Below are positions 40,492 to 61,400 of a stretch of 64,000 nt of DNA, in pieces (positions within the stretch are counted from its first letter, which is position 1; each line of letters begins with the position of its first letter). Under the pieces are notes generated by a model. It was not told where the DNA came from. It saw nothing but the letters and a program-made list of their open reading frames with translations, and searched no databases. Source of the stretch: Hormiphora californensis (taxonomy: Eukaryota > Animalia > Ctenophora); assembly GCA_020137815.1 (NCBI GenBank), contig CM035353.1:6138001-6202000 (forward strand). The letters are read 5' to 3'. A program made the position numbers and the translations under genes.

Positions 40492-43400
40492 TCAAACGTA
40501 CTGCTGCTGAAAAGGAGAGAGATTGTTATTGGCGGAGTATTATGATAGGAGGTCTCTTCGACCTTATTCAATTCAAAGAATTATATTATCCAGTTCATTA
40601 TAAGATAAATTTCCCTGTACACCTACATCAGTGGGGTATGCGTAGCTTCTACCGATTGCATTTATTGCTATCTTATTGAGGGTCCGGACAGTTGGATCTC
40701 GGTGGAGTGTGTCCGTTTCCTCTCCCTCGGAGCTGTTCGCGTCCTTCAGCTTAGCCTGGGGGCAGTGTTGATGGTTAGAAAGTTATAGCTTACATTATAG
40801 GAGGAGCTAGAAAGGGGTAACATTTAGTTGCAGACAAAGTGAGATGAAGTACATCAAACAAATAAAACAGATGGGGGAGTACGTTTTGGAGCGCAGGTAT
40901 ATATTGATGGGACATGGGATGGGGCGGTGGGGCTATTTGTAGATGCACACACATAGGAGCGATAAAATAGGCTAATACATGCACCGATTATTATAAAGAG
41001 GCGAAGCGACATAAAAAGACATCTCGCACAGTCTGTCACACTTTCCGCTCAACCATATGCAGGGTCAATCATTCGCTCTCACGCCTTATTATATGTCCAG
41101 CTAGTAACATAGAAAGCGAGAAAAATAGGCAGAGAGATGGGGGACAGAAGCTGAGACAGAGAGAGTCTGAGTTCGAGATGCATGAGATAGGGAGGGATAA
41201 AAAGGATGAAAACAATTAAAGAAAAGATCAGCAGTCAGCAGAGAGAGAGAGCGAGAGAGAGAAAGAGAGAGAGAGAGAGAGAGAACGAGAGAGAGAGAGA
41301 GAGAGAGAGAGAGAGAGAGAGAGAGAAATAGAGAGAAAGAGAGAGAGAGATAGAGAGAGAGAGAGAGAGAGAGAGAGAGAGAGAGAGAGAGAGAGAGAGA
41401 GAGAGAGAGAGAGAAAGGAGAGAAATATATCAGTAAGCACACTAAAACTAACCTGTTTAAACCTCTCACTACAATTTTTCCTACACCATAAGACCCCGGC
41501 CCCTATGGCGACTATGAACAACACACCAGCTACACCAACAGTTATAGGCAAGATGAACCCTGCACTTTCTTCCGCATCACACCTAGGAGGGGGACACAGC
41601 GGGGGGTAGAGAGGGGGATAGTGAACAACGCTTACCCCTTTATCGTTTCGACGACACCAGCGGTGACAGAACCAGATTACTATGATTATGACTACTATCA
41701 CAGCTACTACGATTAGTATCTCAATCACACGGCTACCAGCACCAGACTTTTTATCGCACCTGAGTAGGGGGAAATTATATGATCATTTTAATATAACAAA
41801 CCCAAACAATCAAACAAACAATCTGACAAACGAACAAACAAACAAACAAACCAACAAACAAACAATCGAACAAACAAACAATCAAACAAACAAACAAATA
41901 AACAAACAAACGAACAAACAAACGAACAAACAAACGAACAAACAAACAAACAAACAAACAAATTAACGAACAAACAAACAAACAAACAAACAAACAAATC
42001 AACAAACAAAAAACAAACAAACAAACAAACAAGCAATCGAACAAACAAACAATCGAACAAACAAACAAACAAACAAACAAACAAACAAACAAACAAATCA
42101 ACAAACACTCACCTGGGTCGTGAGTATCCGTCCTCGCAGTCACATCTTGCTGTGATACTGTTATTAGATAACTTGTAGGCGGTGCACGTCCCATGACTGT
42201 GACAGTAGTTGTCTGGACAGTTGTTTCTGGGTATCGTGTTGGGCACAAACACCGGCTGTGGAGAGGGAAACTAGGGGTTATTGACATCATATTATTCAAG
42301 AAAACACGGTGACTTTTGGGGCTGTGGCATTCTCCGCTTACTATCGTTATATTTTAATGTCCCTCCCCCATCACCGAAATCTCTAGTCCCCCGAAAACCT
42401 ACATCCTCCGACTATCTAATGTTTCAATTCCCCCGCCCGACTATCTGTATCTAATCTTGCTAACATGCTCACCGCTCACTCCCCCAGTTCCCACCCCCAA
42501 CCATCTAAAACTCACACCCCCAGTTCCCACCCCCAACCATCTATAAAACTCACTCCCCCCTCACCTCGTTGATATTTCTAGCTGAGCATGCTGTATCATT
42601 ATCGCCACACTTGCACAGTGCCTCCACATCTGATGGTATACAGATCTCATCAGACTTGCACCTGCCCACGTCACACATTGGCTCCTCCATTGGCTTCAGG
42701 ATATTCTGACTAACTGCCTTCATGGATACTATCTTGCCCCTCAGTTGTTGGAATGTGTAGGTGTTGAGGAGGGGCCCGGGGGCATCGTCCTGGGTGTAAT
42801 CGAACTCTTTAACAACTGTAAATGGTGTGAGAGCATCCCCAACGGTGTTATCACTCTGAATGTAGGCTCGTTCGTACAAAGTTGCAATTGCTTGACCGGT
42901 GTTCCTGCCTTTCCGGTCACTGAATGTTTTCAGGCTTTTACCCCCATAGTTGCTGGATGCAATCCTTAGAGCGATATTGGTGGTACTTGCCCAGTACAGC
43001 CGCTTGCTACCGATATCAATAGCAAGGTCATTAATCACCATATCACCGAGCTCCCCATGTCGTGCCGTGTCTTCGATATCAAACTCGTGGCTGCCATCCA
43101 GCCACATCCGTCGAACCACTACCTTACTTTGTGGTGAAACATATGAGACAAAGAGGTCTCTTTCCTGGCTGTCCACAACGACACGATGGAACTTTGCTGC
43201 GTTGTGGTTGATGACGCGTCTCTTTTTGTTTGTTAGGGACATGACCTCAAGAGTTCCCTTCTCGTAATCTACCCAAAATAGATTGTTGGCATTCCAGTCG
43301 ACGGCAACTGACACCGGCTTCAGAATACCTGCAGGGCATGCATATAAACTTTGGATCGTGATTCGTGGAATGTGTAACATGAATAGCTTTCTTCAGAACA

Positions 43401-58400: not shown

Positions 58401-61400
58401 TCATAGTTTATATCCTGCCTCATGCTCATATTGAACAACAAAAATGTCGACAATCCACTCGGAGAAAATTGTTTCAAATAGCCCTCCTCAGTGTTTCAAG
58501 TTACCAGACTCTCTTCACTGTGCTACAGCACACACACGACACCAATCAGAGAGCAAATAACGCGCATTTGTTTCAAATAACCAGAGCACGTGTTTCAAGT
58601 TATCAGACACTGTTTCAAGTTAGCAGGCGTTTCAAATTGCCAGTCGCTACCCTACTATCTACAGATATCTGGGGTTACCTACCACTATAAAGATACTATC
58701 TACAGATATCTGGGGTTACCTACCACTATAAAGATACTATCTACAGATATCTGGGGTTACCTACCACTATAAAGATACTATCTACAGATATCTGGGGTTA
58801 CCTACCACTATAAAGATACTATCTACAGATATCTGGGGTTACCTACCACTATAAAGATACTATCTACAGATATCTGGGGTTACCTACCACTATAAGATAC
58901 TATCTACAGATATCTGAGGTTACCTACCACTATAAAGATACTATCTACAGATATCTGGGGTTACCTACCACTATAAAGATACTATCTACAGATATCTGGG
59001 GTTACCTACCACTATAAAGATACTATCTACAGATATCTGGGGTTACCTACCACTATAAAGATACTATCTACAGATATCTGGGGTTACCTACCACTATAAA
59101 GATACTATCTACAGATATCTGGGGTTACCTACCACTATAAAGATACTATCTACAGATATCTGGGGTTACCTACCACTATAAAGATACTATCTACAGATAT
59201 CTGGGGTAACCTACCACTATAAAGATACTATCTACAGATATCTGGGGTTACCTACCACTATAAAGATACTATCTACAGATATCTGGGGTTACCTACCACT
59301 GTAAAGATACTATCTACAGATATCTGGGGTTACCTACCACTATAAAGATACTATCTACAGATATCTGGGGTTACCTACCACTGTAAAGATACTATCTACA
59401 GATATCTGGGGTTACCTACCACTATAAAGATACTATCTACAGATATCTGGGGTTACCTACCACTATAAAGATACTATCTACAGATATCTGGGGTTACCTA
59501 CCACTATAAAGATACTATCTACAGATATCTGGGGTTACCTACCACTATAAAGATACTATCTACAGATATCTGGGGTTACCTACCACTATAAAGATACTAT
59601 CTACAGATATATGGGGTTACCTACCACTATAAAGATACTATCTACAGATATCTGGGGTTACCTACCACTATAAAGATACTATCTACAGATATCTGGGGTT
59701 ACCTACCACAATAAAGATACTATCTACAGATATCTGGGGATACCTACCACTATAAAGATACTATCTACAGATATCTGGGGCTAACCTACCACTGTCGCAT
59801 GTTATCCCATCATAGTAGAGACGGTAGCCAGTTGAACAGGCACAACGGTGTCCACCAGGTACCGGGAGACACAAATTCTTACACAAACCCTCTGTACACC
59901 TGTAAATGATGAGTTGAGGAGGTTACATGAGAGTAGTAACAATATCTCAATAAATCTTGCCAGTTCCTAGTCCCATGATACACGCGGGAGAACAGCCAAT
60001 TTGCATTCCATTCTAAGCACTCATCAGTAGCTAACAATACGTAGTGGACATATATATCCAATCACCAGGAACCGACCGAAACAAGTAAACAACCAATCAG
60101 AACTCGTTATTTAGTTCATGTGACTACTGACTGGTTATCAGCCAATCAGGGACCAGTATTTCCTGATTCGGTCGGTTCCTGCCAATCACAATCAAGTACC
60201 TCGTCTTAGACATGGGTTGAAGTGATTGATGGAAGAGTCTCAGGGTGATACCTGAGACCTTGCTACTGTCGATAGTGTCGGAGGATATGGTGACTTGTTG
60301 GTAGTTGTCTCCGCTGAACTTGTTAGCCGCACTGACCTTCCCGCTCGAGTCCCTCCATATAAACATGTCCTGGGTGATTGTTAGTTGTTAATTGTGGGGA
60401 GAGTCCTGGGAGAGAGGTTAGCTCGCGTCCCTCCATATAAACATGTCCTGGGGGATTGTTAGTTGTTAATTGTGTGGAGAGTCCTGGGGGAGTTAGTTGT
60501 TAATTGTGGGTTAATTGGGGGGGGGGTTGTTAATTGTTAATTGGGGGGGGGGGGGTTGTTAATTGGGGGGGTTGTTAGTTGATTGTTAATTGGGGGGATT
60601 GTTAATTGTTAATTGGGGGGGTGTTAATTGGGGGGGGTGTTAATTGTTAATTTGGGGGGGATTGTTAGTTCTAATTGCAGTTGAAGAAACTAGCTGACAG
60701 CAAATTCCAACCAAAATAAGCTGGTACAGCTCAGGTATTTCTGGTTAATACTGGCTACAGTCAGACCCCGGGGGAAAGGGCTTTGCCCGGTAGATCGGGG
60801 TCCGACTATACAAAACAAACTAAAAGCACAAATAGTACCTCAAATAGTACCACAAATAATAGTACCTCAAATATTTGCATTTTATAAGGATGGCCCAAGT
60901 TAACGGTGTCATGTTTTGTGATCGTGTACCGTTCCTTTCCTTCGTAGCTTATGCACTCTACACAAGAGGGGGAGGTGTCAGCTGGATAACTAATTTAATC
61001 AATACTACTGGTCTCTGGATGAATGTGTGAATTAAATTAAAACAACAACTACTTATAGTAGTACACAGTACACTAAATTAGCATGTACCTATTGAGTGTA
61101 GGTTGGCGTCCATCCAGTAAATATTCTTATTAGGATGATCAATCACCATGGCATTGGGCCAGATAACCTGATCACTACCACTCCCGTGGTTGTTCTCCAG
61201 TAGTGTCATCCAGTTGCCTCCGTCCATATCGGCTCGACCCAGGTGGGCAGGGACGCCCCAATCAGTGTAGAATATCAGTCCCTCCACCGGGTCCACATCC
61301 ACAGCTCTCGGTTTGGAGATATTCTGCCAGATAATTGCCCTCCGCTCGTTGCCATGGTAATCGGTCACCTCAATCGCCGAGGAGATGTGAGAGGTAAAGA

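What the first reader, a model, noticed from the sequence alone, without database searches (positions are those of the whole stretch)
42107..60870. Systematic splice-site-anchored tandem repeats across the LRP-like gene
Seen: unrelated repeats begin at or include a splice site in many introns. Donor-side cases are 42112 (AAAC), 42564 (~35 bp), 44820 (35 bp), 46068 (68 bp with 50 nt of exon), 49481 (19/21 bp), 56391 (~34 bp), ~59786 (41 bp) and 60865 (short); an acceptor-side case is 60370. Each unit derives from local sequence. Inference: a mutational process or selective filter that amplifies exon-intron junctions, producing stacks of decoy splice sites and driving intron growth in this genome.
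Basis: partly seen in the sequence, partly recalled or inferred. Interest (0 to 1): 0.78.

Follow-up and report, generated by a model that had tools for sequence, protein, structure and literature searches.

The report
Comb-jelly splice-junction "mirage" repeats, LRP gene
In a likely comb-jelly receptor gene, five exon borders (and one in the neighbouring gene) have been copied head-to-tail into the introns up to 56 times, a repeat type already described in lancelets and humans, and likely a tolerated by-product of frequent local duplication in short introns.

Summary
All nine splice sites are real (one donor is at 59789, not 59786). They were mapped with a relative's mRNA and with RNA contigs.

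The nine cases are not alike:
- Five units cross the junction. Two give large stacks of decoy donors (15 and 42 extra copies).
- One starts exactly at the GT.
- Three start 5-9 nt inside the intron and carry no strong decoy.

Eight of 17 arrays lie within 10 nt of a donor, against 2.6 expected by simple shuffling (p=0.001). Most of that excess goes once introns are collapsed to ancestral size and the acceptor zone is protected (p=0.07-0.18). Junction-crossing alone is at chance (6 vs 4.5).

The neighbouring TMEM69-like gene has a 56-copy acceptor stack. RNA contigs of close relatives use the exon-proximal donor at 2 of 2 junctions seen.

This is a new member of a known kind: amphioxus "mirages" and human F7/CBS-type minisatellites. 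The scan already noted it on other DNA of this genome. One twist holds here: variants in the exon-derived copies of the two big arrays are mostly silent (8 of 9-11), which points to exchange with working alleles.

The parts
40628..63983 (-). LRP/megalin-like host gene (EGF and YWTD repeats, TM); 26 introns in the window, 5' part lies beyond the window end
   Evidence: tblastn and blastn with relative's protein P0003 and mRNA L001; Pfam on P0003
41803..42107 (-). 4-nt microsatellite x76, starts 5 nt after donor 42112; no decoy donor scoring as well as the real one
42475..42559 (-). 36-bp unit x2.3, 5 nt after donor 42564; contains GTGAG words but no copy of the junction
43409..44811 (-). 35-bp array (2.4 + 3.4 units) split by a MITE-like element (about 43493-44693, 393-nt inverted arms); starts 9 nt after donor 44820; no decoy
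45044..46118 (-). 68-bp mirage: last 50 nt of exon + 18 nt of intron, 15 extra donor copies (12 identical 9-mers); use of any decoy gives an immediate stop
   Evidence: RNA contig of run X3 uses the first donor
48617..49481 (-). 19/21-bp array x44 beginning exactly at the GT of donor 49481; repeats the intronic half-site only
   Evidence: contig of run X1 uses the first donor
56305..56412 (-). 34-bp mirage x3.2: 21 nt of exon + donor 56391; copies decaying
57358..59793 (-). 41-bp mirage, 4 nt of exon + donor 59789, 42 extra identical donor 9-mers; split by a MITE-like element (57972-58652, TA on both sides)
60343..60492 (-). 78-bp duplication across acceptor 60370 (27 nt of exon); the upstream copy keeps AG but leads to a stop
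60829..60873 (-). 12/15-bp repeat across donor 60865; decoy use would add 5 or 9 residues in frame without a stop
32914..38404 (+). Outside the finding: 65-bp acceptor mirage in intron 32702-38378 of a TMEM69/DUF3429-like gene; 56 decoy acceptors before the in-frame one; interrupted by about 1.6 kb with a weak zf-RVT match
63510..63685 (-).

Best explanation
These are 'mirage'-type tandem repeats: short local duplications that likely arose at a high rate in a gene of small (about 180 nt) introns, were likely amplified by unequal exchange, and are likely tolerated because splicing would use the copy of the site nearest its own exon. Shown: the arrays, their exon-derived content, the identical decoy sites, the return to normal intron size on collapse, and first-donor use in 2 of 2 RNA contigs that reach an array-bearing donor. 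Inferred: seeds wholly inside exons, or that disturb the branch-point/acceptor zone, are purged, which pushes survivors toward the donor end. MITE-like elements later inserted into two arrays. Also inferred: repeated exchange with the working exon edge feeds silent variants into the large arrays.
For: Collapsed intron median 179 nt vs 176 nt for array-free introns. Junction-including arrays at chance, 6 of 17 vs 4.5; donor excess falls to p=0.07-0.18 with the acceptor zone excluded. Almost all decoy use would give a frameshift or stop, so survival implies decoys are mostly skipped. Contigs of runs X3 and X1 join exon to exon at the first donor of introns 21 and 16. The relative's proteins P0003 and P0007 have no array-derived insert. 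The same anatomy and normal splicing are reported for amphioxus mirages (PMC3087553, PMC3902484; passages) and human F7 IVS7 (PMC1557585; abstract and introduction).
Against: Under two of the nulls a donor-side excess remains (8 of 17 vs 2.6-3.4, p=0.001-0.007), and several edges fall within 0-9 nt of the GT. The TMEM69-like array shows that 56 near-identical upstream acceptors persist, so the acceptor zone is not closed to duplication, which weakens the exclusion null. The RNA contigs are 95-99% identical to the window and may come from animals that lack the arrays. Contigs drop rare isoforms. No contig covered introns 8 or 10. Exon 56872-57097 has two +1 bases against the relative; if real, this allele is broken and free of selection.
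Confidence: 0.6

Rival explanations
1. Exon-anchored inter-allelic exchange. In a highly polymorphic genome exons are islands of homology between alleles whose introns differ by many indels. Repair or conversion tracts that start in the exon stall and slip at the exon edge, so duplications are made preferentially at junctions and keep capturing the exon ends of other working alleles.
For: Distinct substitutions in the exon-derived parts of the two large arrays are mostly silent: 8 of 9 (p=2-5e-4), or 8 of 11 if the boundary codon is counted (p=0.003-0.006). The TMEM69-like array reads Ala-Pro-Gly like the relative's protein P0007, while the adjacent working exon reads Ser-Pro-Gly and differs at 4 of 9 bases after 26 identical ones. 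The last copy of the 68-bp array runs into a different intron start than the other copies. Hormiphora has about 3.2% SNP+indel heterozygosity with raised indel rates in introns (PMC8527503, passages). Human minisatellites mutate mostly by inter-allelic processes (PMC2599865, passages).
Against: Only two arrays carry the signal. Adding the small arrays (1 silent, 4 non-silent, counted by hand) weakens it to 9 of 16, p about 0.02. One silent variant could come from a sub-repeat inside the unit. Silent bias shows exchange with a working copy, not a raised duplication rate at junctions, and fits the best explanation as well. Junction-including arrays are not in excess. No second haplotype was available.
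Confidence: 0.22
2. A splice-site- or motif-linked mutational bias: chromatin, R-loops or a bound protein at 5' splice sites, or a palindromic X-box-like word, triggers slippage next to donors regardless of alleles.
For: 8 of 17 array edges lie within 10 nt of a donor vs 3 at acceptors. The 35-bp and 68-bp units share a 14-nt palindrome that occurs at 4 independent places (0.12 expected) and resembles the RFX4 motif listed in PMC5449588 (passage).
Against: Donor vs acceptor 8:3 is not significant (p=0.23). The palindrome is in only 2 of 9 units, and one of its places is a coding exon with no array. The largest stack in the window is on an acceptor.
Confidence: 0.1
3. The decoy stacks are functional: they tune expression by alternative donor or acceptor use coupled to nonsense-mediated decay.
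For: Human 6-16 and CBS pseudo-sites are partly used (PMC1557585, introduction). The 12/15-bp decoys at 60865 would stay in frame without a stop.
Against: Units are private to each intron, decay in small arrays and are broken by insertions. RNA contigs show only the first donor (2 of 2).
Confidence: 0.05
4. The arrays or their copy numbers are assembly artefacts.
For: Three +1-type frameshifts lie nearby (two in exon 56872-57097, one in the nested gene), so base quality is imperfect.
Against: Recurrent internal variants, MITE-like insertions with TA on both sides inside two arrays, and diverged end copies are not features of assembly stutter.
Confidence: 0.03

Closest known systems
Amphioxus 'mirage' minisatellites (Adh3, globins BflGb6/BflGb9, troponin C, PGBD5); PMC3087553 and PMC3902484, passages read
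   Same: Tandem duplications that span exon-intron boundaries on either side, units of 10-160 bp, cryptic GT/AG in the copies, end copies less homogenised, normal splicing reported.
   Different: Different phylum (likely ctenophore). Copy numbers here (up to 43 and 57) exceed the 3-6 reported for BflGb6. Two arrays are split by MITE-like insertions. A silent-variant bias is not mentioned in the passages I read; supplements were not read.
Human minisatellites whose first monomer spans a donor: F7 IVS7 (37 bp), CBS IVS13, 6-16 intron 2, lamin B2, PDGF intron 4; PMC1557585, abstract and introduction read
   Same: Identical 5' pseudo-sites follow the authentic donor. F7's unit holds 4 nt of exon, as does the 41-bp unit here. 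The most upstream donor is used.
   Different: Human cases are single loci in long introns. Here four donor stacks and one acceptor duplicate fall in one 26-intron gene, and acceptor stacks, where upstream-first scanning would pick the wrong site, also persist.
Ordinary intronic micro- and minisatellites
   Same: The arrays at 42112, 42564 and 44820 and the TC runs are only near a donor and carry no strong decoy.
   Different: None that this window can show beyond a modest donor-side excess.

Membership tests
mirage minisatellite | Head-to-tail repeat whose unit spans an exon-intron boundary | tested here: met
   Met at 46068, 56391, 59789, 60865, 60370 and the TMEM69-like acceptor
mirage minisatellite | Unit spans the boundary (the remaining four listed cases) | tested here: not met
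   42112, 42564 and 44820 start 5-9 nt inside the intron; 49481 starts at the GT with no exon part. These four are not filed as mirages
mirage minisatellite | Copies retain GT/AG splice signals | tested here: met
   12 and 42 identical donor 9-mers; 56 decoy acceptors
mirage minisatellite | Locus-specific unit derived from local sequence | tested here: met
   No unit matched outside its own intron within the window; the whole genome was not available
mirage minisatellite | Normal mRNA splicing at the authentic site | tested here: inconclusive
   First donor used in 2 of 2 contigs, but from other individuals or a sister species; introns 8 and 10 uncovered; rare isoforms are not visible in contigs
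mirage minisatellite | Copy-number variation between alleles | not testable with these tools
   One haplotype only; no genomic relative found (one search returned only an mRNA)
mirage minisatellite | Concerted evolution with divergent end copies | tested here: met
   First and last copies of the 41-, 65- and 68-bp arrays differ from the internal consensus

The most novel reading that the evidence does not exclude
Mirages are made by inter-allelic exchange anchored in the conserved exon. In hyper-polymorphic genomes the exon edge is a homology boundary where duplications form and keep capturing exon ends from other working alleles, so each array is an archive of functional alleles. With up to 56 identical decoys on either side resolved toward the exon-proximal copy, these loci would also show exon definition operating in short-intron genes of an early-branching animal lineage.
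Probability: 0.25. Interest if true: 0.62.

Novelty: new member of a known kind. Interest (0 to 1): 0.33.

Why it matters
As it stands, it extends a known but little-studied repeat class to a likely ctenophore and shows that arrays account for over a quarter of this gene's intron length. It also supplies ready-made tests of splice-site choice: identical donors or acceptors in long stacks, where only the exon-proximal copy keeps the frame. If the inter-allelic reading holds, it would give a mechanism for mirages (called unclear in PMC3087553) and link heterozygosity to intron growth.

Tried and rejected
No whole genome is held, so the genome-wide test could not be run.

The metagenome scan with P0003 gave 1 locus from 26 candidate stretches, an mRNA, so ancestral intron lengths come from collapsing arrays and not from a relative.

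Read laying on 55790-57345 gave no cover of exons 8-10, so the two frameshifts and the 34-bp and 41-bp stacks are untested by RNA. Run X4 held only unrelated or MITE matches. No read laying covered a long array itself, so decoy use was not measured.

Rejected ideas:
- A donor-only 'first come, first served' filter as the whole story: the 56-copy acceptor stack contradicts it.
- A shared mobile origin of the units: no cross-matches beyond a short palindrome.
- In-frame tolerance as a rule: only the 60865 case is in frame and stop-free.
- Recursive splicing through the TMEM69-like stack (each copy is AG|GT): considered, untested.

Rows dropped from the main count of 26 TRF arrays: 5 inside MITE-like elements and 4 in the nested-gene intron. 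With the latter included the donor count is 8 of 21, p=0.001-0.008.

Paper searches for ctenophore reports of this pattern and a general search listed none by title or abstract start. Most subscription papers, including the original Adh3 mirage paper, are outside the library, and no supplements were read.
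Full report
Setting. No genome is held for the window. The largest exon found a 1,677-aa relative at 91% identity (P0003) with LDL-receptor class B, EGF and class A domains, and its 5,524-nt mRNA was fetched as L001. L001 begins with the spliced leader printed for the ctenophore Hormiphora californensis (PMC8527503; search hit and passages). A protein 97% identical to the neighbouring gene carries a EukProt 'sb' identifier, which I recall as Pleurobrachia gene models. 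The window is therefore likely from a pleurobrachiid comb jelly.

Gene structure. tblastn and blastn give 26 introns on the minus strand between 63916 and 40756. A junction script matched 23 of them to L001 at 35-44 of 48 bases. Intron 18 is fixed by an RNA contig. The intron-8 donor is 59789, where the mRNA match ends; its acceptor is uncertain by 8 nt. Intron 25, retained in L001, is inferred. RNA contigs 95-99% identical to the window confirm introns 17-20 as joints and introns 12, 16 and 21 as loose ends.

What the arrays are. Five units cross the junction: 68 bp with 50 nt of exon, 34 bp with 21, 41 bp with 4, 12/15 bp with 8, and 78 bp with 27 at the acceptor. One starts exactly at the GT (19/21 bp), and three start 5-9 nt inside the intron. 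Scored with a matrix built from the gene's 26 donors, copies identical to the real 9-mer number 12 (of 15 extra), 42 (of 42), 1 and 1. The arrays at 42112, 42564, 44820 and 49481 have none that scores as well as the real donor. The 35-bp and 41-bp arrays are each split by an inverted-repeat element with TA on both sides. No unit matches outside its own intron in the window. The 35-bp and 68-bp units share a 14-nt palindrome found at 4 independent places against 0.12 expected; it resembles the RFX4 motif in PMC5449588 (passage).

Is it more than chance? Of 26 merged TRF arrays in the introns I dropped 5 inside MITE-like elements and 4 in the nested-gene intron, leaving 17. But arrays grew from single seeds in small introns: collapsed introns have a median of 179 nt, and array-free ones 176 nt. 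On that null the expectation is 3.4 (p=0.007). Counting either side gives 11 vs 6.7 (p=0.017). Excluding the last 40 nt of the intron gives 8 of 14 vs 5.5-6.2 (p=0.07-0.18). Arrays that actually include a splice site number 6 vs 4.5 (p=0.27), and donor vs acceptor 8:3 is p=0.23. The threshold was chosen after the fact, collapsed lengths may be too short where an array replaced older sequence, and the gene was selected for the pattern. A modest donor-side lean is possible; systematic junction targeting is not shown. Intron growth is real: arrays 5,261 nt, MITE-like elements 3,219 nt, the nested-gene intron 5,134 nt and the rest 5,025 nt of 18,639.

An independent case in the window. A TMEM69/DUF3429-like gene on the plus strand has a 5.7-kb intron (32702-38378) largely filled by a 65-bp array whose unit is the acceptor plus the start of the next exon. 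It holds 56 decoys before the only copy that continues in frame with P0007. So acceptor stacks persist too, and in both kinds the frame-keeping site is the one nearest its own exon. That fits exon definition (inference). It also argues against treating the acceptor zone as closed, which weakens my most conservative null.

Splicing. Decoy use would give a stop or frameshift everywhere tested except at 60865. A contig of run X3 runs from unique exon sequence through the shared 50 nt straight into the next exon, and a contig of run X1 joins 47753 to 49482. Both use the first donor (2 of 2). These animals may lack the arrays, and contigs hide rare isoforms. Introns 8 and 10 had no cover. Exon 56872-57097 has two extra bases against L001 and the nested gene has a frame break. 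Each could be a one-base run miscount, so I read them as likely assembly errors, untested.

Silent variants. An earlier scan note (e1-10582703) suggested that copies differ from the exon mostly at silent sites, and I tested this. Distinct substitutions in exon-derived parts are 3 silent of 4 in the 68-bp array and 5 of 5 (codons 1-11) or 5 of 7 (with the boundary codon) in the TMEM69-like array, against 23-35% expected. Combined that is 8 of 9 (p=2-5e-4) or 8 of 11 (p=0.003-0.006). Adding five hand-counted changes from the small arrays gives 9 of 16 (p about 0.02). One copy's 2-nt insertion and, for codon 12, one truncated copy were left out. The TMEM69-like array encodes Ala like the relative where the working exon has Ser, with an abrupt switch after 26 identical bases. 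The last 68-bp copy runs into a different intron start. This shows exchange with working copies, plausibly other alleles. It does not show that junctions are preferred targets.

Known kind. Tandem duplications of exon-intron boundaries are described as mirages in amphioxus Adh3, globins, troponin C and PGBD5, with normal splicing and an unclear mechanism (PMC3087553 and PMC3902484, passages). Human F7, CBS, 6-16, lamin B2 and PDGF carry donor-spanning minisatellites, and F7 uses the most upstream donor (PMC1557585, abstract and introduction). I reached these papers through earlier scan notes, which also report the same pattern on other DNA of this genome; those notes are unchecked and are not counted as support. 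Searches listed no ctenophore report.

Verdict. It is a new member of a known kind, interest 0.33. The inter-allelic, exon-anchored origin is the novel reading (probability 0.25, interest 0.62).

Noticed in passing
window 32702-38404 (+): TMEM69/DUF3429-like intron with a 65-bp acceptor mirage of 56 decoys; each copy is AG|GT, so recursive splicing is conceivable. The array keeps an Ala codon where the working exon has Ser.
   Followed up: partly
window 41453-41759 (-): Two tandem transmembrane-encoding exons (41636-41759 and 41453-41582) start in the same phase and look like a duplicated, possibly mutually exclusive pair. The relative's mRNA L001 carries both with the small intron retained.
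   Followed up: partly
window 52025-55310 (+): Intronless nested gene on the opposite strand in intron 12, with LDL-receptor class A repeats and, by inspection only, a multi-pass membrane C-terminus; split into two ORFs by one frame break near 53535.
   Followed up: partly
window 56872-57097 (-): Two +1 bases relative to the relative's mRNA break the LRP-like frame; assembly error or broken allele.
   Followed up: partly
window 38981, 43432-44786, 45097-46064, 61348: RFX X-box-like palindrome at four independent places (0.12 expected), two of them inside repeat units of neighbouring introns.
   Followed up: partly
window 43493-44693, 47817-48576, 57972-58652, 61444-62022: Four different MITE-like inverted-repeat elements in LRP introns. 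Two sit inside arrays, and one ends about 10 nt from acceptor 61433.
   Followed up: partly
window 36090-37690: Insertion inside the 65-bp array with a weak zf-RVT match (E=0.009, below the curated cut-off), likely a LINE fragment; it contains its own 60-bp repeat (37151-37303).
   Followed up: partly
window 192-367, 8435-8641, 31487-32273: Repeated inverted-end element family with 15-17-bp subterminal repeats, present at several places in the TE-rich left half of the window.
   Followed up: no
window about 22750-24200 and 24770-26240: A segment of about 1.4 kb appears twice, with further partial copies to about 28200 (seen by reading the sequence).
   Followed up: no
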